10,347 bases of DNA from IMG/VR virus record IMGVR_UViG_3300032250_000269, positions 89,069 through 99,415 of that record; one strand, 5' to 3'. The notes under the pieces are model-generated. The model had not been told where the DNA came from. It saw only the letters and a program-made list of their open reading frames with translations, and ran no database searches. Below, in pieces: positions 4,297 to 9,737 of this stretch (positions are counted from its first letter, which is position 1; each line of letters begins with the position of its first letter). Origin of the DNA: a virus (Duplodnaviria; Heunggongvirae; Uroviricota; Caudoviricetes). The position numbers and the translations under genes are program-made.

Positions 4297-5343
4297 ATGA
4301 TTAAGTTTCCTAGCGTAGATCAGTTTCGTAACGTGATTCGTCACGTACAGACGCATACACGTTATGCTGGTAAGGATGAGAACGGTGAAGCAATTTATGA
4401 TGCTTCTCGCCCACTTCCTACACTGAAGTTTCGTGGCACTGTAAAGCTTCATGGTACTAATGCTGGTATCGTGTATGATAATGCGACTGATTCAATCACG
4501 TATCAGTCACGTGAGCGTGTGTTGTCACTTACTCAAGACAACGCTGGCTTCATGCTGAACATGATGAACCATGAAGATAAGCTTCTCAAGGCATTTCGCA
4601 CCATGGCTTTTAATCACACTCCCGATCTTGATAAGATTGCGGTGTTTGGTGAGTGGTGTGGACAGGGAATTCAAAAGGGAGTTGCTGTAAGCGAACTTCC
4701 TAAGATGTTTGTTGTATTTGCTATCAAGTTTACATTCACTGATGGTTATTTTGAGTGGGTTGACATTGAAGGCGATGAGATTGAAGGTACAACAATCCCT
4801 AACATGTTTTACATCGATGATTTTCCAACATGGGAAATTGATGTTGACTTCAAGTATCCTGAGATTGCTCAGAACGAGATGATCAAGATCACTGAAGCGG
4901 TCGAAGCTGAATGTCCTGTTGGTAAGCACTTTGGTGTTTCTGGTATTGGTGAAGGTGTTGTATGGGCCTGTATCAGTGAAGGATGGGAGGATAACTCTGG
5001 AACTTGGTTCAAGGTCAAGGGTGAGAAGCATTCTGTTTCAAAGGTGAAGACACTTGCTGCCGTTGACATTGAAGCTGTCGAAAACATGCGTGAGTTTGTT
5101 AAGAGTGTGGTAACTGAAGCACGACTTGAACAAGGTCTTGACAACCTAGTACGTGAGCAGCTAAAGCCTTTTGAAATGACAAGCATGGGTGACTTCATTC
5201 GTTGGATATACAACGATGTACTCAAGGAAGAAATGGACACTATCATCGCTAACCAAATCGATCCTAAAAAGCTGGGTGGCGCTGTTGCTAACGAAGCACG
5301 TCCTTGGTTCATCAAGAAGTTTAATGAAGGTGTAGGTCTTTAA
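4297..5343 (+). CDS. rnl2: RNA ligase, Rnl2 family (348 aa)
   Basis: Nucleotidyltransferase motifs: I KLHGTN (Rnl2-type KxHGxN), III FGEWCG, IIIa VFAI, IV GEGVVW, V FKVK. SD AAAGG upstream. Confidence 0.85.
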   Translation: MIKFPSVDQFRNVIRHVQTHTRYAGKDENGEAIYDASRPLPTLKFRGTVKLHGTNAGIVYDNATDSITYQSRERVLSLTQDNAGFMLNMMNHEDKLLKAFRTMAFNHTPDLDKIAVFGEWCGQGIQKGVAVSELPKMFVVFAIKFTFTDGYFEWVDIEGDEIEGTTIPNMFYIDDFPTWEIDVDFKYPEIAQNEMIKITEAVEAECPVGKHFGVSGIGEGVVWACISEGWEDNSGTWFKVKGEKHSVSKVKTLAAVDIEAVENMREFVKSVVTEARLEQGLDNLVREQLKPFEMTSMGDFIRWIYNDVLKEEMDTIIANQIDPKKLGGAVANEARPWFIKKFNEGVGL

Positions 5344-5528
5344 TGTACTTTTATCAAGCACAGTGGTGGGACGAAGGAAACCAGTTTGGCGAACTTCGTT
5401 CCACACGTGAAGAAGCAATTGCTGATCTTGCATCAATGGGTTGTCCTGTAGAAAAACTTGTTGAAGATAAGCATGGTTTGATGTATGTACCGAATATGGG
5501 TTGGGGAATTGCAATTCTTCATGTTTGA
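5343..5528 (+). CDS. Small hypothetical protein (61 aa)
   Basis: TAATG overlap with the ligase stop indicates translational coupling. No recognisable motif. Confidence 0.7.
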   Translation: MYFYQAQWWDEGNQFGELRSTREEAIADLASMGCPVEKLVEDKHGLMYVPNMGWGIAILHV

Positions 5529-5534
5529 TATTGT

Positions 5535-5610
5535 GCTCTCTTAGCTCAGTGGTTAGAGTAAGACTCTCTAAAAGTCATGGTCGTGGGTTCGAATCCCACA
5601 GAGAGCACCA
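5535..5610 (+). tRNA. Amber suppressor tRNA, anticodon CUA
   Basis: Acceptor stem GCTCTCT/AGAGAGC, A73 and encoded CCA (5608-5610). D arm GCTC-AGTGGTTA-GAGT. Anticodon stem (A)GACT/AGTC(A) with loop CT-CTA-AA (anticodon 5568-5570). Short variable loop TGGTC. T arm GTGGG-TTCGAAT-CCCAC. Confidence 0.93.
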
Positions 5611-5627
5611 TTTTTTAGGAAAATGAT

Positions 5628-5816
5628 ATGAGTTTTTTTGAATATATCAGGTCACGAGAACTTTATAAATATCATAGCGAAGGAGCTAGTCCTTGGCCAT
5701 CTAACATACAGGTTATTTTTGCAGAAAAATTATTGCAAAAATGTAAAAAAATGGAAGAACAATTTCCTGTATTTCCAGAAATGTATGATAAATATCTTAG
5801 AGACAAATATGTATGA
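5628..5816 (+). CDS. Small hypothetical protein (62 aa)
   Basis: SD AGGA at 5617-5620, 7 nt before the ATG. Ends TGA. Confidence 0.65.
   Translation: MSFFEYIRSRELYKYHSEGASPWPSNIQVIFAEKLLQKCKKMEEQFPVFPEMYDKYLRDKYV
5664..5671 (+). promoter_or_regulatory. Possible T4-type late promoter TATAAATA inside ORF 5628-5816
   Basis: Perfect match to the gp55 late consensus, with a variant GATAAATA at 5787-5794. Chance matches are plausible in AT-rich DNA. Confidence 0.35.
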
Positions 5817-5956
5817 CAGATATGAGTTCGTACACAAGTAACAGAGTTTTCGAAGGTAAGCGTGTTATTACTGACGAACAAGCCAAAAGGCACCGTGAAA
5901 GGCTCAAAAGAGCATTAGATAGAAGGAAGAATGATATGAGCACTGAAACTATGTAG
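5813..5956 (+). CDS. Small basic ORF (47 aa) ending in amber TAG; an internal SD could yield a 6-aa leader MSTETM (5936-5956)
   Basis: Read by hand: MTDMSSYTSNRVFEGKRVITDEQAKRHRERLKRALDRRKNDMSTETM*. ATGA overlap with the upstream gene. AAGGA 5923-5927 lies 8 nt before ATG 5936. Confidence 0.6.
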   Translation: MTDMSSYTSNRVFEGKRVITDEQAKRHRERLKRALDRRKNDMSTETM

Positions 5957-5977
5957 CCGTATGACGCAATAGGACCA

Positions 5978-6027
5978 CCTTGTGGTTTAATAAGACCAAA
6001 CACAAAAATCTTATTAAAACACAAAGG
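5978..6027 (+). promoter_or_regulatory. RBS-sequestering hairpin in front of the gene at 6037
   Basis: CCTTGTG-G-TTTAATAAGA (5978-5995) pairs with TCTTATTAAA-A-CACAAAGG (6009-6027), about 17 bp. It covers most of the SD AAAGGA (6023-6028). Confidence 0.7.
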
Positions 6028-6036
6028 AATTCTATT

Positions 6037-6420
6037 ATGACAAATTTTATTAATACATTTAAGGCTAAAGCTCACTCAAAGAATCTAACATGTGCAGACA
6101 TGATTGCTCTATGCATCTATCGCACAGTCAAAGCTAAGTCAGAAGACAAAGAAACAATCCTTAAGTATTTTCTAACAAAATCATTTTCTGCTGGCAAGGT
6201 ATGTGCTCATAGGCAGTATCCTTATCAGTCAATCATCAATGCGATGTATAACTTCAACCATAGACTTCGTGGTGGTAGAATTTGGATGGATAATGCGTGG
6301 AAGCAAACCAGTGGTATTGTTCTTGGTGTCGAAGTAACTGAAGTTTTGACAGAAGAAGAACTGTTGAAGTTTCGTGAACTAGCTGCTATGATTACTCCTG
6401 ATTTTGTAAAGGCACTTTGA
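6037..6420 (+). CDS. Hypothetical protein (127 aa), upstream partner of the Pth2-like gene
   Basis: ATG 6037 with SD AAAGGA at 6023-6028, preferred over TTG 5980. Only 1 nt separates it from the next gene. Confidence 0.85.
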   Translation: MTNFINTFKAKAHSKNLTCADMIALCIYRTVKAKSEDKETILKYFLTKSFSAGKVCAHRQYPYQSIINAMYNFNHRLRGGRIWMDNAWKQTSGIVLGVEVTEVLTEEELLKFRELAAMITPDFVKAL

Positions 6421-6421
6421 T

Positions 6422-6793
6422 ATGAGACATTACGCATACTTTTTCACTCGCCAAGATATTTCTCCTGAATATCAAGTAGTACAGACAGCACATGCCGCAT
6501 TCCAGCTTGGGGTAAACTCCCAACGCTGGATTGACTCTCCACCACCAAAACAGCAAGTGATGGATGATGTTAAGGCTGAGAACACCAACTACTTCACTGT
6601 AGTTGGTGTTCGCAATCTTGACGCACTTCTTGCTGTGTCTACAATCCTTGACAAGTTTAATTTCAAGTATGAAGTTTTTCGTGAGGATGATCTTAACGGA
6701 GAACCAACTTCGATTGCAGTATATCCTATCGAAGATATTGCTAGAGGACCACTACTAGCATTTAACCTTCTCAAGATCGATAAAAAGAGTTGA
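6422..6793 (+). CDS. Peptidyl-tRNA hydrolase type II (Pth2)-like protein
   Basis: PTH2-family pattern: YFFTRQDIS..YQVVQTAHAA (cf. vvRxDL....xAQxxHA), central VVGV, then VFREDDL..EPTSIAVYP and a C-terminal R....LL. Confidence 0.7.
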   Translation: MRHYAYFFTRQDISPEYQVVQTAHAAFQLGVNSQRWIDSPPPKQQVMDDVKAENTNYFTVVGVRNLDALLAVSTILDKFNFKYEVFREDDLNGEPTSIAVYPIEDIARGPLLAFNLLKIDKKS

Positions 6794-6810
6794 CTTGAGA
6801 AGCGAATCAT

Positions 6811-6818
6811 ACTAAATA
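6811..6818 (+). promoter_or_regulatory. Late-promoter variant ACTAAATA directly upstream of the tmRNA gene
   Basis: 6/8 match to TATAAATA, located immediately before the first paired segment of the tmRNA precursor. Confidence 0.5.
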
Positions 6819-6820
6819 GA

Positions 6821-7136
6821 GTTATCAGTTGTTGACAATCAACAATAAAGGTCTAGAGGACACGGGGGCAGTACCCGTCACCTCCACCATCTACTTAGTA
6901 AGAACTGAGAGGGTATCTCAGACAAGCAATGTAGCTAATTGTTTCGGGGGTTACTTGCTAGGTAGTTGATGGGGGTGAACTAGGATCGACTTGGACGGAA
7001 TAGGAAGATCGAGACTGATTGACTGGCAAAGTGCCACAAAACGTAAATGCAAACGATAACAACGCATATGGAGCTTTTGCGCTAGCCGCATAAGTAATCG
7101 GGGGTCCGGTGGGTACCTAGCAACAGAAACCCACCA
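6821..7136 (+). ncRNA. ssrA: Circularly permuted two-piece tmRNA, alphaproteobacterial type
   Basis: Acceptor piece about 6821-6889 has T arm ACGGG-GGCAGTA-CCCGT and ends CACCTCC-A-CCA. Intervening segment 6890-6970. Coding piece begins GGGGGTG (6971-6977), giving an acceptor stem with G3:U70 alanine identity, followed by AACTAGGATCGAC. Resume context TAAAT-GCA. Tag ANDNNAYGAFALAA* at 7049-7093. Terminal hairpin GGTGGGT/ACCCACC (7108-7135). The pieces pair via TTGGAC/GTCTAG and ACTGAT/ATCAGT. Confidence 0.95.
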
Positions 7137-7160
7137 CTTTATTATGGGATGTGATTTGAC

Positions 7161-7625
7161 ATGAAACCTTATTTTGTTGGTATGGGATTTATTCCTATTT
7201 TGATCTTTGCACATTTTTTTATGCCACCATGGTTCTTTATGATAGTAGCATTTTCTATGCTATTCTTTTTTTGTCAGATGGCGGCTAATCATAAAGAACC
7301 AGTATTTGAGTGGCCTGAATTGTCGTTTTCTCAAAATGACAAAACTATCATCCTTACCATGTCAACCAAAGATGGTAAGAGTATTGATAGATATCTTTCT
7401 ATCAACCGCCTTAACCTTCCTAAAACAGTTGTTGAAAAGACCGTAGAAAAAACCACATCATCTATCTGGCACGTGCTTGGTATGATGCCTACGACTGATA
7501 GGAACGCTGTAGAGAAGGCATTTCGTAAAATGTCTATGGTATATCATCCTGATACTGGTGGTACGACTAGTGCTTTTAATGCGCTTGTGGAAGCAAAAGA
7601 AAAGGCACTACAGAAGTGTAGGTAA
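7161..7625 (+). CDS. Membrane-anchored J-domain (DnaJ-like) protein
   Basis: Hydrophobic N-terminus (about residues 4-37). C-terminal WHVLG...AFRKMSMVYHPDTGG...FNALVEAKEKAL carries the HPD motif. Confidence 0.85.
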   Translation: MKPYFVGMGFIPILIFAHFFMPPWFFMIVAFSMLFFFCQMAANHKEPVFEWPELSFSQNDKTIILTMSTKDGKSIDRYLSINRLNLPKTVVEKTVEKTTSSIWHVLGMMPTTDRNAVEKAFRKMSMVYHPDTGGTTSAFNALVEAKEKALQKCR

Positions 7626-7626
7626 A

Positions 7627-7697
7627 ATTTCCTTTGTGTATAAATAGATTGTCCCTAGTCCTAAGACAACGGACACACACACATACACAAAGGAAAT
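7627..7697 (+). repeat. Perfect 15-bp inverted repeat that sequesters the SD of gene 7702
   Basis: ATTTCCTTTGTGTAT (7627-7641) pairs with ATACACAAAGGAAAT (7683-7697). Confidence 0.9.
7639..7646 (+). promoter_or_regulatory. T4-type late promoter TATAAATA
   Basis: Perfect consensus in intergenic DNA, 55 nt before ATG 7702. Confidence 0.85.
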
Positions 7698-7701
7698 AAC
7701 T

Positions 7702-7920
7702 ATGTCACAAGATACCCCATATCTCCTACGCATGGAGATGATCAAGCTTGCTCAACAGAGAGCATCAGAAAAATTTCAAACAGAATGGTCTACAGCAGCA
7801 GAAAAAGCAAAAATCAACGAAAATGCTTCGTTCCTAACTGAAGTTCCAGAATACCCTAGTACAGAAAAACTTTTAGAAGAAGCCAAAAAGCTTAGAAAGT
7901 TTGTTGACGGCAAGGAATAA
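7702..7920 (+). CDS. Small late hypothetical protein (72 aa, MSQDTPYLLRMEMIKLAQ...)
   Basis: SD AAAGGA at 7689-7694, late promoter upstream and terminator downstream. The TPY.LR.E..K.A start resembles small T4-like phage hypotheticals. Confidence 0.85.
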   Translation: MSQDTPYLLRMEMIKLAQQRASEKFQTEWSTAAEKAKINENASFLTEVPEYPSTEKLLEEAKKLRKFVDGKE

Positions 7921-8652: not shown

Positions 8653-8946
8653 TTTCTATAGGAGGTAGTCTACCTCCATTACCATTACAACAGCTTCAAG
8701 TCCTTATGTGGCTAAGAAAGCGTTTATGTCAAAAATAGCATAAAATCCCTTTATGCGAAAAACAACATAAACACCGACGAAAACACTAATGATTTTGCAT
8801 TCCTAGTAATGGAGGGATGGATGTAGAAGATACCGATTTTTATTTTCATTGTATCTTCTCATGAATTATTGATAGTAGGCGTTGAGATACGCTATAACGC
8901 TTTCAGTAGTTCCAAAGTCATTAATTGACGAGAATACAAATGACTT
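8653..8946 (+). ncRNA. Candidate structured 5' leader RNA of the SleB-gp33-gp59 operon
   Basis: About 290 nt with no convincing gene and many stems: GGAGGTA/TACCTCC, GCATAAA/TTTATGC, CCTCCATTAC/GTAATGGAGG, AGAAGATAC/GTATCTTCT, GCGTT/AACGC and AAGTCATT/AATGACTT. Confidence 0.55.
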
Positions 8947-9491
8947 ACTTAACAAAAAATAAAAAATATACTTTAAAAAACATAGTGATTACATTTTTTA
9001 TTATGGTATCAATTGTTGCAGCAGCAATATCAACTCCTGCAAAACCATCACCAACAGTAGAAAGTTCTAGACAAGTAGAACAAAATACTGTACAGAACAA
9101 AAGAATTACACCGTATGACGAAAGTCAGATAAATTGTCTAGCCCGAAATGCATATTTTGAGGCAGGAAATCAATCTGAAAGAGGCATGATTGCTGTTACG
9201 AGTGTAGTTATGAACCGTACTAAGGATAGTAGGTTTCCAGACACACCATGTGCTGTTATTAGACAGAAAAACCATGGTGTATGTCAATTTTCTTGGGTCT
9301 GCCAAGGTAAAAACAAAATCCGTGATGCAGATATGTTTAGAAGAGCACGAGCAGCCGCAGAGCGTGTCTATCTAAATAAAGTGTACGATGTAACACACGG
9401 CGGATTATTTTATCATGCAAAATATGTTCATCCTAGATGGAATTTAACACAGGTTGCCAGTATTGGCGCACATATATTTTATAGAGGATAG
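8940..9491 (+). CDS. SleB/CwlJ-family (Hydrolase_2) cell-wall hydrolase with N-terminal signal or anchor; ends in TAG
   Basis: CLARNAYFEAGNQ (catalytic Glu), AVTSVVMNR....RFPDTPCAVI, CQFSW, LFYHA.YV.P.W and IGAHIFY. Hydrophobic IVITFFIMVSIVAAAI. The start is ATG 8940 or the in-frame TTG 8925. Confidence 0.92.
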   Translation: MTYLTKNKKYTLKNIVITFFIMVSIVAAAISTPAKPSPTVESSRQVEQNTVQNKRITPYDESQINCLARNAYFEAGNQSERGMIAVTSVVMNRTKDSRFPDTPCAVIRQKNHGVCQFSWVCQGKNKIRDADMFRRARAAAERVYLNKVYDVTHGGLFYHAKYVHPRWNLTQVASIGAHIFYRG

Positions 9492-9494
9492 TTG

Positions 9495-9737
9495 ATGAGT
9501 GAATTAAAGTTAGCCAAAGCGATTAATACAGACAGATTTTTTAAAGAAATTGATTCTTTAGTTAAGAAACATAGACTGAGTTATATTGACGCTATAGTCT
9601 TTTTCTGTGAAAAGAACGAGATTGAAATAGAAACCGCTGCTGCAATGATCGCTGGCAACTATAGAATGAAGTCATCACTACAAACAGAAGGCGAAGAGCT
9701 TCATTTTCTGCCAAGGTCTGCTAAGCTTCCTATCTAA
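9495..9737 (+). CDS. gp33: T4 gp33-like late transcription co-activator
   Basis: F..EID..V......YIDAIVFFCEKNEIEIE...L...E.EELHFL....KLPI pattern. Conserved 33-59 gene order. SD GAGGA at 9484-9488. Confidence 0.88.
   Translation: MSELKLAKAINTDRFFKEIDSLVKKHRLSYIDAIVFFCEKNEIEIETAAAMIAGNYRMKSSLQTEGEELHFLPRSAKLPI

What the first reader, a model, noticed from the sequence alone, without database searches (positions are those of the whole stretch)
4297..7625. Clustered translation-rescue module: RNA ligase, amber tRNA, Pth2, tmRNA and J-domain co-chaperone
Seen: within about 3.3 kb on one strand lie an Rnl2 ligase, a suppressor tRNA, a Pth2-like gene, a tmRNA and an HPD J-domain gene. Established: these address broken RNAs, stop-codon decoding, dropped-off peptidyl-tRNA, non-stop stalled ribosomes and protein folding respectively, and many anti-phage defences and TA toxins cut tRNA or mRNA to stall translation. 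Inference: a coordinated counter-defence or quality-control island with internal feedback through the amber-gated leader. The small unknown ORFs at 5343, 5628, 5813 and 6037 are candidate new components.
Basis: inference. Interest (0 to 1): 0.85.

Follow-up and report, generated by a model that had tools for sequence, protein, structure and literature searches.

The report
Suppressor-tRNA-gated Pth2-like operon among translation genes
All five translation-related genes are really there, but related phages do not keep them together as one module; what they keep is a stop-codon-reading tRNA next to a short leader that seems to switch on a two-part tRNA-hydrolase-like enzyme only when that tRNA reads through a UAG stop.

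Summary
The window is the end of a 99-kb uncultured T4-like phage fragment. Positions 4297-7625 hold an Rnl2 RNA ligase, a tRNA-CUA, a Pth2-fold gene, a permuted alpha-type tmRNA and a membrane-anchored HPD J-domain gene.

Rnl2 and the J-domain gene are neighbours only in the two closest lineages. The tmRNA moves or is missing. An ArfB-like gene, Rnl1 and a kinase lie 40-65 kb away.

The unit that is kept is tRNA-CUA, usually a late promoter, a leader, ORF 6037 and the Pth2-like gene.
- In 19 independent leaders a mini-ORF ends in a stop, and 4-7 codons later come Pro-Pro codons.
- The CCNCCU of those Pro-Pro codons pairs with the Shine-Dalgarno site (SD) of the next gene, at the base of a covarying hairpin.
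- Eighteen leaders use TAG (14 of them have a tRNA-CUA upstream). One uses TGA and sits beside a tRNA-UCA.
- ORF 6037 is not a new stand-alone component. In 81 of the 150 best family representatives it is fused to the Pth2-like domain as its N-terminal half.

No counter-defence role was shown. This scan had already noted similar amber-gated Pth2-like leaders on other genomes. My literature searches found no published description.

The parts
4297..5343 (+). Rnl2-type RNA ligase (348 aa). A variable neighbour, not part of the conserved core.
   Evidence: PF09414 E 8.8e-13; phrog_548 E 1.7e-68 over the full length; motif I KLHG is present. It is adjacent only in L010 and L017. It is 58.5% identical to the Cr30 Rnl2, which lacks the other parts.
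5343..5528 (+). 61-aa ORF whose start overlaps the Rnl2 stop. Function unknown; it travels with Rnl2.
   Evidence: Found directly after Rnl2 in L010 (77% identity) and L017 (48%) and nowhere else. No Pfam or PHROG match.
5535..5610 (+). Amber-suppressor tRNA (anticodon CUA, class I, CCA encoded).
   Evidence: Detected by ARAGORN and Rfam. The cloverleaf covaries in 11 orthologues. It lies upstream of 14 TAG-ended leaders. The discriminator base varies A/G/U among orthologues. Its closest tRNA in the same genome is a CAU tRNA, 79% identical.
5628..5816 (+). 62-aa ORF of unknown function, poorly conserved. It contains the late-promoter-like TATAAATA.
   Evidence: A homologue is found only in L017. 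Weak match to phrog_25034.
5664..5671 (+). T4-type late-promoter consensus TATAAATA upstream of the leader.
   Evidence: The same 8-mer lies between the tRNA-CUA and the mini-ORF in 8 of 13 loci.
5813..5956 (+). Leader ORF ending in TAG at 5954-5956. It has an internal SD (AAGGA, 5923-5927) and a mini-ORF start at ATG 5936, giving MSTETM-UAG.
   Evidence: All 15 split-gene loci have an SD and a mini-ORF of 6-15 codons ending in TAG.
5957..5980 (+). Read-through codons PYDAIGPP. The Pro-Pro codons (5975-5980) act as the anti-SD. In this window the frame stays open a further 19 codons, to TGA 6038-6040, which overlaps ATG 6037.
   Evidence: The Pro-Pro codons are in frame in four different spacing classes, and the Gly and Pro codons show synonymous third-position changes.
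5978..6027 (+). Hairpin that pairs the Pro-Pro codon region with the SD (AGGA, 6025-6028) of gene 6037.
   Evidence: RNAfold predicts it in every locus. RNAalifold gives 14 pairs, 10 with compensatory changes. 84.8% of cells are paired against 70.3% in shuffles (0 of 500 shuffles reach it). Covariation score is 0.416, against 0.20 in shuffles and 0.11-0.12 when partners are slid.
6037..6420 (+). 127-aa protein: the detached N-terminal domain of the two-domain Pth2-like enzyme family. Confident model with no recognised fold.
   Evidence: 78 homologues, none with a Pfam match. AlphaFold pLDDT 91 with no fold match. The N-terminal halves of 81 of the 150 best family representatives match its profile, with E down to 1e-24.
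6422..6793 (+). Pth2-fold hydrolase-like protein (123 aa). Its ATG starts 1 nt after the TGA of gene 6037.
6791..7184 (+). Circularly permuted two-piece tmRNA of the alphaproteobacterial type, tag ANDNNAYGAFALAA. A variable neighbour.
   Evidence: RF01849 120 bits; RF04321 105 bits; ARAGORN. Its position varies among relatives. Two-piece tmRNAs next to gp33 in T4-like marine phages are already published (PMC9004378).
7161..7625 (+). Membrane-anchored J-domain protein (154 aa, HPD motif present). A variable neighbour.
   Evidence: PF00226 27.4 bits against a cut-off of 27.8; phrog_9210 E 3.6e-8. Homologues are adjacent only in L010 and L017.

Best explanation
The stretch is not one five-gene machine. 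It is a variable accessory region of a T4-like phage. It lies between the tRNA array and the conserved hydrolase-gp33-gp59-gp32 block, and it has collected several translation-related genes: Rnl2, a tmRNA and a J-domain protein.

Inside it sits one conserved regulatory unit: tRNA-CUA, usually a late promoter, a leader, gene 6037 and the Pth2-like gene.

Proposed mechanism, step by step:
1. On the transcript, the ribosome-binding site of gene 6037 is locked in a hairpin. The 5' base of that hairpin is formed by two proline codons (CCNCCU).
2. A short upstream reading frame with its own SD ends in UAG, six codons before those proline codons. This places the hairpin base 24 nt past the UAG in this window, and at least about 15 nt past it in relatives.
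3. A ribosome that terminates at the UAG should therefore leave the hairpin closed.
4. If the phage's tRNA-CUA reads the UAG, the ribosome moves onto the Pro-Pro codons, where peptide-bond formation and termination are slow. In this window it then continues through the whole hairpin to a TGA that overlaps the ATG of gene 6037.
5. The SD is freed. Gene 6037 is translated, and by stop/start coupling so is the Pth2-like gene.

The two products are the halves of what most relatives encode as one protein. I infer that this enzyme hydrolyses an ester bond on tRNA, acting on peptidyl- or aminoacyl-tRNA. Its synthesis would then be tied to how actively stop codons are being read through, for example to recycle tRNAs left over after read-through.

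What is shown here: the architecture, its conservation, the base-pair covariation, the match between leader stop codon and tRNA anticodon, and the domain fusion. What is inferred: that read-through happens, that it opens the SD, and what the enzyme acts on.
For: Conserved core:
- tRNA-CUA, ORF 6037 and the Pth2-like gene stay together in the window, L010, L011/L022, L016, L017, L019 and L023. Identity falls as low as 30-36% for ORF 6037 and 55% for the Pth2-like protein. The same holds in the metagenome loci L028, L032, L034, L037, L038 and L039.

Leader design:
- All 15 split-gene leaders have an SD, a mini-ORF, TAG, 4-6 codons, Pro-Pro, and then either a stop or an open frame reaching the next start. 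The end of the Pro-Pro codons lies 46-58 nt from the ATG of gene 6037 in every case.
- Four leaders in front of fused genes have the same design.
- In L043 the leader stop is TGA and the adjacent tRNA has anticodon UCA. In L047 it is TAG with a tRNA-CUA.

Hairpin:
- It has 14 pairs, 10 with compensatory changes. The CC of the second Pro codon pairs with the GG of the SD in 14 of 15 loci.
- It beats all 500 shuffles and every slid control.

Translation beyond the stop:
- The Pro-Pro codons are in frame with the mini-ORF at spacings of 4, 5 and 6 codons in the split-gene leaders and 2-7 in the fused ones. No stop codon intervenes, and the Gly and Pro codons show synonymous changes.

Other support:
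- TATAAATA lies between the tRNA and the leader in 8 of 13 loci.
- Domain fusion is seen in 81 of the 150 best representatives.
- The Pth2 fold is confirmed.
- The phage is not recoded: + strand stops are TAA 101, TGA 47 and TAG 2, and reading TAG as sense hardly changes ORF coverage.
Against: - Nothing here is experimental. Whether the tRNA is expressed, whether it is charged and with which amino acid are all unknown. The discriminator base differs among orthologues.
- The base after the TAG is mostly C. From my own knowledge that is not the best context for suppression.
- L045/L046 have a TAG leader but no tRNA within the 440-860 nt of upstream sequence available.
- Some relatives carry the Pth2-like gene with no tRNA-CUA, no ORF 6037 and no leader (L021, L024). 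The enzyme therefore does not strictly need the gate.
- The Pth2-like protein scores below the Pfam cut-off, and from memory the catalytic Lys of canonical Pth2 appears to be replaced. The chemistry may differ.
- TAG is not clearly depleted in relatives that carry tRNA-CUA: 8 of 154 stops against 3 of 45 in those without.
Confidence: 0.6

Rival explanations
1. Rnl2, tRNA-CUA, the Pth2-like gene, the tmRNA and the J-domain protein form one coordinated island. It repairs or bypasses damage done by host defences that target translation, such as anticodon nucleases or mRNA-cutting toxins.
For: All five genes are on one strand within 3.3 kb. The same order is kept in L010, and in L017 apart from the tmRNA. 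Published comparative work on jumbo phages places PTH2 and RNA ligases in an RNA-repair and ribosome-rescue context (PMC7824862). The genome invests heavily in this theme: 29 tRNAs, an ArfB-like protein, Rnl1 and a kinase.
Against: Six of nine related long loci lack Rnl2 and the J-domain gene near the Pth2-like gene, and the tmRNA shifts position or is absent. Cr30 has Rnl2 alone. The likely tRNA-repair pair, Rnl1 plus a kinase, and the ArfB-like gene lie 40-65 kb away. No defence or anti-defence signature was tested or seen in the window.
Confidence: 0.1
2. The leader works mainly as a nascent-chain arrest peptide of the RAPP/RGPP class. The peptide made after read-through jams the peptidyl-transferase centre at Pro-Pro, and this arrest opens the SD. 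Simple ribosome passage would not be enough.
For: L023, L035 and L037 read SIRAPP and L047 reads IRGPP after the stop codon. RAPP and RGPP are proven arrest motifs, also found upstream of genes of diverse function (PMC10951233 and PMC12992588). In 9 of 15 split-gene leaders a stop codon follows Pro-Pro directly. The peptides before and after the stop recur among lineages (NEGxGG, STETM, PYxAIGPP).
Against: The window and most relatives have IGPP, VGPP, AKPP, RDPP, TGPP or KPPP, with no Arg at the key position. Variants with that Arg replaced (AAPP) are arrest-defective in the published systems. The Pro-Pro codons are also fully explained as the anti-SD. In the window the frame continues through the hairpin anyway.
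Confidence: 0.25
3. Negative-feedback homeostat. The 6037/Pth2-like enzyme deacylates or otherwise inactivates the suppressor tRNA itself, so read-through switches on its own brake and keeps suppression low.
For: ORF 6037 co-occurs with the tRNA-CUA more tightly than the Pth2-like gene does. L021 and L024 have the Pth2-like gene but neither ORF 6037 nor the tRNA. The gate senses exactly the activity that such an enzyme would control. The prfB-style logic of a stop-codon-sensing autoregulator is well established (own knowledge).
Against: There is no evidence on substrate. The 6037 fold matches nothing known. The complex prediction gave no verdict and is not used as evidence either way.
Confidence: 0.15
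4. No gate exists. The mini-ORF is an ordinary upstream ORF terminated by RF1, the hairpin is a generic stabiliser or terminator, and the tRNA-CUA is a neighbour only by descent.
For: All loci are related T4-like or large phages, so shared ancestry inflates the apparent conservation. The TAG+1 context is not ideal for suppression. One leader lineage (L045/L046) shows no nearby tRNA.
Against: TAG is invariant while the flanking peptide and nucleotide sequences diverge completely. The single TGA leader sits beside a tRNA-UCA. The open, in-frame stretch to Pro-Pro is kept at several spacings. TAG ends only about 2 of 150 genes in this genome.
Confidence: 0.07

Closest known systems
Leader-peptide control by SD unmasking (ermC/ermB-type leaders; secM-secA; RAPP/RGPP arrest peptides ApdA, ApdP, ApcA)
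   Same: A short upstream ORF overlaps the 5' arm of a hairpin that hides the SD of the next gene, and a ribosome held on that arm turns the gene on. Some relatives even carry RAPP or RGPP at the stall site (PMC10951233, PMC12992588).
   Different: The input is not a drug, a secretion defect or an amino acid. The ribosome reaches the controlling codons only if a stop codon is read through, by a suppressor tRNA usually encoded 25-385 nt upstream of the mini-ORF. The window's motif (IGPP) lacks the Arg needed by RAPP-type arrest.
Stop-codon recoding in phages with their own suppressor tRNAs (code 15 / code 4; bioRxiv 10.1101/2021.08.26.457843; PMC9523058)
   Same: A phage-encoded suppressor tRNA makes expression of certain late genes depend on stop-codon read-through.
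   Different: This genome is not recoded. No large gene has an in-frame TAG, and TAG remains a rare stop. The stop lies in a regulatory leader, not inside the controlled genes.
prfB (RF2) autoregulation through an in-frame UGA
   Same: A stop codon placed early in a transcript senses how well that stop is being decoded and sets the output of a translation factor (own knowledge).
   Different: prfB uses a +1 frameshift and senses release-factor level. Here the escape is read-through by a dedicated tRNA and the output is a Pth2-fold protein.
Archaeal/eukaryotic peptidyl-tRNA hydrolase Pth2 (PF01981; PDB 1xty, 2zv3, 3erj, 1q7s) and the PTH2 genes noted in jumbo phages (PMC7824862)
   Same: Same fold, with TM 0.56-0.65 and Foldseek probability 1.0. 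The R-x-D...Q-x-x-H-A-A and T-x-I-A-V-Y-P stretches resemble Pth2 motifs (the comparison is from memory).
   Different: Below the Pfam cut-off (15.4 against 23 bits), with no hit against PDB sequences. It has an obligate partner domain, ORF 6037, of unknown fold, fused in most relatives. Catalytic residues were not verified.
Two-piece tmRNA of T4-like marine phages (Melnitz, pelagimyophages; PMC9004378) and phage tmRNAs in general (PMC4131195)
   Same: A permuted alpha-type ssrA a few genes upstream of the gp33 coactivator gene in a T4-like aquatic phage.
   Different: Rfam reported no glutamine riboswitch in the window. Here the tmRNA abuts the Pth2-like gene and overlaps the start of a J-domain gene.
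T4 Rnl2 (gp24.1), and membrane-anchored or phage J-domain proteins such as DjlA and Rki of phage RB43 (own knowledge)
   Same: Rnl2: motif I and full-length family match. J-domain protein: a C-terminal J domain with HPD after N-terminal membrane segments.
   Different: Neither is linked to the conserved core outside the closest relatives.

Membership tests
Rnl2 RNA ligase (PF09414 / phrog_548) | Nucleotidyltransferase domain with the motif I lysine (KxxG), scoring above the family cut-off. | tested here: met
   PF09414 49.2 bits against a cut-off of 27; KLHG at residues 50-53.
Rnl2 RNA ligase (PF09414 / phrog_548) | Full-length architecture, including the C-terminal domain. | tested here: met
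   phrog_548 aligns residues 1-343 to profile positions 3-340 of 341, E 1.7e-68.
Suppressor tRNA | Cloverleaf maintained by compensatory changes, with a CUA anticodon in a canonical 7-nt loop. | tested here: met
   68.8 bits to the Rfam tRNA model. 15 of 21 pairs have compensatory changes in 11 orthologues, and the loop CUCUAAA is invariant.
Suppressor tRNA | Aminoacylation and decoding of UAG in vivo. | not testable with these tools
   Only indirect support: the frame beyond the TAG is conserved, and the leader stop matches the tRNA anticodon.
Pth2 peptidyl-tRNA hydrolase (PF01981) | Sequence score above the Pfam gathering threshold. | tested here: not met
   15.4 bits against a cut-off of 23, E 0.022. 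A profile of 33 homologues finds no PDB sequence.
Pth2 peptidyl-tRNA hydrolase (PF01981) | Pth2 alpha/beta fold. | tested here: met
   The model has pLDDT 83. The 15 best PDB hits and all 30 Swiss-Prot hits are Pth2, Bit1, PTRHD1 or unnamed homologues, with TM 0.5-0.65.
Pth2 peptidyl-tRNA hydrolase (PF01981) | Catalytic residues (the Lys and Asp of S. solfataricus Pth2) and esterase activity. | not tested
   I had no residue-level alignment to a solved Pth2. From memory, the Lys position appears to be Tyr/Gln and the Asp may correspond to the invariant D90. This is a lead only.
Alphaproteobacterial two-piece tmRNA (RF01849) | Permuted tRNA-like domain plus a tag reading frame, scoring above the gathering threshold. 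| tested here: met
   120.2 bits against 50. RF04321 scores 104.9 against 47. The tag ANDNNAYGAFALAA is followed by a stop.
Alphaproteobacterial two-piece tmRNA (RF01849) | A cognate SmpB partner encoded by the phage. | tested here: inconclusive
   No PF01668 match in the 99-kb fragment, but the fragment is estimated at only 56% of the genome.
J-domain (DnaJ, PF00226) | HPD tripeptide between helices II and III. | tested here: met
   The sequence YHPDTGG lies in the matched stretch, residues 103-147.
J-domain (DnaJ, PF00226) | Score above the Pfam gathering threshold. | tested here: inconclusive
   27.4 bits against a cut-off of 27.8. phrog_9210 gives E 3.6e-8.
RAPP/RGPP arrest peptides | An Arg-(Ala/Gly)-Pro-Pro core at the stall site. 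| tested here: not met
   The window reads AIGPP. The Arg is present only in L023/L035/L037 (RAPP) and L047 (RGPP). Replacing that Arg (AAPP) abolishes arrest in the published systems.
SD-sequestering leader (translational attenuator) | A conserved hairpin that pairs the SD of the regulated gene with sequence inside the leader reading frame. | tested here: met
SD-sequestering leader (translational attenuator) | A demonstrated change in downstream translation when the ribosome occupies the 5' arm. | not testable with these tools
   Needs reporter or toeprint assays.
Recoded (code 15) phage | In-frame TAG codons inside conserved protein genes. | tested here: not met
   ORF coverage is 86.5% under code 11 and 86.9% with TAG read as sense. 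No real gene is joined across a TAG.

The most novel reading that the evidence does not exclude
Phage suppressor tRNAs in genomes that are not recoded exist, at least in part, to drive a dedicated read-through-sensing leader. The leader has a mini-ORF, a matching stop codon, and Pro-Pro codons that act as the anti-SD. It licenses synthesis of a two-domain Pth2-fold enzyme that acts on the suppressor tRNA or on the peptidyl-tRNAs that read-through creates. On this reading it is a portable, self-contained translational circuit present in hundreds of phage lineages, with the leader stop codon covarying with the tRNA anticodon (UAG with CUA, UGA with UCA).
Probability: 0.45. Interest if true: 0.8.

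Novelty: new variant of a known kind. Interest (0 to 1): 0.6.

Why it matters
Many phages that use the standard genetic code carry a suppressor tRNA with no identified target gene. One genome announcement says so outright (PMC9022506). This locus and its relatives point to a concrete target: a leader whose stop codon matches the tRNA and which controls a conserved tRNA-hydrolase-like enzyme.

If confirmed, three things follow:
- It would be a natural sensor of stop-codon read-through built from very few parts, which interests translation biologists and people who engineer genetic codes.
- It would define a large, unannotated two-domain enzyme family: 887 clusters at 50% identity, none of the 20 members checked having a Pfam match.
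- It corrects the idea that the five neighbouring translation genes are one counter-defence island. That matters for how such gene neighbourhoods are read in other phage genomes.

Tried and rejected
- Near-identical DNA in GenBank phages: none. The distant search found only Rnl2.
- ORF 6037 has no tblastn match in 50,697 phage records. The Pth2-like protein has only 24-30% matches, in Xanthomonas jumbo phages and uncultured megaphages.
- Fold searches for ORF 6037 gave nothing above noise: Foldseek PDB best E 0.25, AFDB clusters best E 0.24, VIA-align best Z 5.2.
- Complex prediction on the Pth2-like protein plus ORF 6037 returned no verdict. I do not use it as evidence either way.
- A profile of the Pth2-like family against PDB sequences found no hit.
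- Whole-genome recoding of TAG is rejected.
- Read-through fusion of the cell-wall hydrolase to gp33 (TAG at 9489-9491, same frame): relatives have TGA or TGA-TGA there, so it is not conserved.
- The "second amber gate" before the hydrolase (ATG-TAG at 8821-8826) is shared only with L010 and L017. More distant relatives have other mini-ORFs there.
- TAG depletion as a general correlate of carrying tRNA-CUA is not supported in relatives: 8 of 154 stops against 3 of 45.
- A sigma-70 promoter as the explanation for the conserved block after the TAG: the hexamer spacing I worked out from the alignment would be 19 nt, and the "spacer" is itself conserved. Rejected (reading of the sequence).
- Rfam found no glutamine riboswitch or any other family beyond the tRNA and tmRNA.
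- The amino-acid identity of the tRNA-CUA could not be assigned.

Full report
**Context.** The window is the last 10.3 kb of a 99,415-base IMG/VR virus record, estimated 56% complete, with 38% G+C. PHROG matches to the gp33 late-transcription coactivator, the gp59 helicase loader, an rml sugar cassette and a cell-wall hydrolase mark it as a T4-like phage. Nearly all genes are on the + strand. The fragment carries 29 tRNA genes scattered over 68.9-94.7 kb, plus the tmRNA. The stretch in question is therefore the tail of a long tRNA/small-ORF region. That region ends at the conserved hydrolase-gp33-gp59-gp32 block.

**Checking the observation.** All five named parts are real.
- Rnl2 (4297-5343) passes the Pfam cut-off and matches phrog_548 end to end.
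- The tRNA (5535-5610) has anticodon CUA and scores 68.8 bits. In 11 orthologues, 15 of 21 cloverleaf pairs show compensatory changes while the loop CUCUAAA never changes.
- The gene at 6422-6793 is only a sub-threshold Pfam PTH2 hit. A model built on 33 homologues (pLDDT 83) matches only Pth2, Bit1 and PTRHD1 structures, with TM 0.56-0.65 and probability 1.0. "Pth2-like" is thus correct for the fold, and unproven for the chemistry.
- The tmRNA is a permuted alpha-type gene at 120 bits, with a tag ending in ALAA.
- The last gene (7161-7625) has two hydrophobic N-terminal segments and a C-terminal J domain with HPD. It scores 0.4 bits under the Pfam cut-off.

I fetched relatives through the Pth2-like protein, which has 266 homologues, none annotated, and through ORF 6037. 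This gave nine long loci and thirteen shorter ones. All the long loci end in the same hydrolase-gp33-gp59 block, followed by gp32 wherever the locus reaches that far, so they are comparable.
- Rnl2, ORF 5343 and the J-domain gene are present only in the window, L010 and L017.
- The tmRNA lies after the Pth2-like gene in the window and L010. It lies before the tRNA-CUA in L011/L022 and L038, directly before the Pth2-like gene in L024, and is absent in L016, L017, L019, L021 and L023.
- Several relatives carry DUF2828/DUF7788 and VWA genes, a DNA-ligase-family gene or a nuclease in that slot instead.
- Cr30, the nearest cultured phage by Rnl2, has nothing else of the set near its Rnl2.
- In this genome an ArfB-like GGQ protein (122 aa), Rnl1 and a 165-aa AAA_33 kinase lie 40-65 kb upstream, and no SmpB was found.

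The five genes share a theme but are not inherited as a unit. The theme itself has been noted before: PTH2 and RNA repair in jumbo phages (PMC7824862), and a two-piece tmRNA next to gp33 in T4-like marine phages (PMC9004378).

**What is conserved.** The tRNA-CUA, ORF 6037 and the Pth2-like gene stay together down to 30-36% identity for ORF 6037. Between the tRNA and ORF 6037, every locus has the same small device:
- an SD and a mini-ORF of 6-15 codons that ends in TAG;
- four to six further in-frame codons with no stop;
- two proline codons;
- then either a stop (9 loci) or an open frame that runs to or over the ATG of ORF 6037 (6 loci, including the window, where TGA 6038-6040 overlaps ATG 6037).

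The peptides differ widely. Before the stop they read MSTETM, MTNEGHGG, MTRIRDIPR and others. After it they read PYDAIGPP, SIRAPP, VIAKPP and TSSRDPP. The TAG and the Pro-Pro are invariant. The end of the Pro-Pro codons lies 46-58 nt from the ATG in all 15 loci.

**The hairpin.** Folding shows why the Pro-Pro codons are kept. In every locus their CCNCCU pairs with the AAGGA/AGGAG SD of ORF 6037, at the base of a 12-20 bp hairpin whose inner stem has a different sequence in different lineages.
- On a 15-sequence alignment RNAalifold predicts 14 pairs, 10 with compensatory changes.
- 84.8% of cells are paired, against 70.3% in shuffles (0 of 500 shuffles reach it) and 32-54% when the partners are slid.
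- The covariation score is 0.416, against 0.20 in shuffles and 0.11-0.12 in slid controls.
- In the window the hairpin spans 5978-6027 and the SD is at 6025-6028.
- The hairpin base begins 24 nt past the first base of the TAG here, and at least about 15 nt past it in the shortest relatives. From general knowledge of the ribosome footprint, a ribosome terminating at the TAG should not open it, whereas one that has read through will.

**The leader stop matches the tRNA.** A profile search of the Pth2-like family found 887 clusters. Four leaders in front of family members from that search have the same design.
- L047 has TAG, then LSVVIRGPP, with a tRNA-CUA about 130 nt upstream.
- L044 and L045 have TAG, then a peptide ending in TGPP.
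- L043 has TGA, then IKPPP, and the tRNA directly upstream has anticodon UCA.

One TGA/UCA case is a small sample. It is, however, the result expected if the neighbouring tRNA decodes the leader stop. Scan notes on other genomes report the same rule. Those notes are leads, not independent evidence.

**Timing.** The T4 late-promoter consensus TATAAATA lies between the tRNA and the mini-ORF in 8 of 13 loci, and at 5664 in the window. By my rough estimate from base composition, a chance occurrence in such short segments has a probability near 0.02 per locus. The unit is therefore probably a late transcript.

**ORF 6037 is half of the enzyme.** Of the 150 best representatives of the Pth2-like family:
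- 81 are single proteins of about 200-300 aa. Their N-terminal half matches the ORF 6037 profile (E down to 1e-24) and their C-terminal half is the Pth2-like domain.
- 13 more are long without a detectable ORF 6037 match.
- 56 are stand-alone.

In the window the two genes are separated by a single base between the TGA stop and the ATG. ORF 6037 is thus the detached N-terminal domain of a two-domain enzyme, not an independent new component. Its model is confident (pLDDT 91) but matches no known fold, and neither the split nor the fused forms have a Pfam match.

**Arrest peptide or plain unmasking?** RAPP and RGPP are proven arrest motifs (PMC10951233, PMC12992588), and they occur in L023/L035/L037 and in L047. 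The window and most relatives lack the Arg, and the published Arg-to-Ala (AAPP) variants do not arrest. The invariant feature is therefore the Pro-Pro codons acting as the anti-SD. From my own knowledge, slow X-Pro-Pro peptide-bond formation and slow Pro-stop termination could lengthen the open state. A true nascent-chain arrest may be an add-on in some lineages.

**What the circuit is for.** This phage is not recoded. Its + strand stops are TAA 101, TGA 47 and TAG 2, no real gene is joined across a TAG, and only about two genes end in TAG. The suppressor is therefore not needed to read phage proteins. I infer that the gate ties production of a tRNA-ester hydrolase to the level of read-through.
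- One possibility is recycling of the tRNAs and peptidyl-tRNAs left when ribosomes run past stop codons. In that case the nearby tmRNA and the distant ArfB-like gene make loose functional sense.
- The other is a brake on the suppressor itself.

I cannot separate these two, and relatives with an ungated, stand-alone Pth2-like gene (L021, L024) show that the enzyme also works outside the circuit.

**Verdict.** The five-gene counter-defence island is not supported as a unit. The amber-gated leader is strongly supported and extended: Pro-Pro codons as the anti-SD, a covarying hairpin, a frequent late promoter, a leader stop that matches the tRNA anticodon, and a split two-domain enzyme. The individual parts belong to known kinds. 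I did not find the gate in the literature searched, though this scan has already met close variants on other genomes.

Noticed in passing
window 8925-9737: The cell-wall hydrolase ORF ends in TAG (9489-9491), and the gp33 coactivator ORF follows in the same frame after one more codon. Amber read-through would therefore fuse the two. Relatives have TGA or TGA-TGA at this junction, so the TAG is specific to this lineage.
   Followed up: yes
window 8770-8946: The leader of the hydrolase gene has a nucleotide block (about 55 nt, ending in GGAGGGATGGATG) that is almost identical in six loci. After it come ATG-TAG in the window, L010 and L017, and ATG-GAT-GAC-TAG or a 24-codon ORF ending in TAG-TAA in L016, L022 and L024. 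More distant relatives have ordinary mini-ORFs. It may be a second, lineage-restricted amber-dependent leader or a conserved RNA element. There is no Rfam match.
   Followed up: partly
G000:C1:27591-27959 (locus L040 1483-1851): A 122-aa GGQ-motif protein (RF-1 domain, 54.7 bits) resembling the ribosome-rescue factor ArfB, next to a dihydrofolate-reductase-like gene and 66 kb from the window.
   Followed up: partly
G000:C1:48517-50860 (loci L041, L042): Rnl1-type RNA ligase (PF09511, 111 bits) and, about 1.3 kb downstream, a 165-aa AAA_33 kinase. They may form a tRNA-repair pair, and they sit apart from the Rnl2 in the window.
   Followed up: no
L043 285-1627: An opal-suppressor tRNA (UCA) and a TGA-gated leader precede a fused 6037/Pth2-like gene. 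That gene is followed by a tRNA-Met and a 69-aa gene with the Acb2/Tad1 hairpin domain (PF24729), a family of anti-defence nucleotide sponges.
   Followed up: partly
L016, L019, L021-L024, L044 (downstream of the Pth2-like gene): In relatives, a 470-aa DUF2828/DUF7788 gene, often with a VWA-domain gene, occupies the slot where the window has the tmRNA and the J-domain gene. Two or three tandem ADP-ribosyltransferase genes (PF03496) lie upstream on the opposite strand.
   Followed up: no
window 5535-5610 and G000:C1:82798-82873: The tRNA-CUA is most similar (79%) to one of the phage's three CAU tRNAs rather than to its Gln, Lys, Glu or Trp tRNAs. The discriminator base of the orthologues varies among A, G and U. 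The inserted amino acid is therefore open and may differ between lineages.
   Followed up: partly
L021 4209-4570 and L024 9722-10010: The two relatives with a stand-alone Pth2-like gene (no tRNA-CUA, no ORF 6037) share a conserved non-coding block of about 100 nt just upstream of that gene. It is possibly a different leader RNA.
   Followed up: no
window 7627-7704: A second TATAAATA (7639-7646) lies in the spacer after the J-domain gene, just before the 72-aa ORF 7702. That ORF is well conserved in L010, L017 and L021.
   Followed up: no
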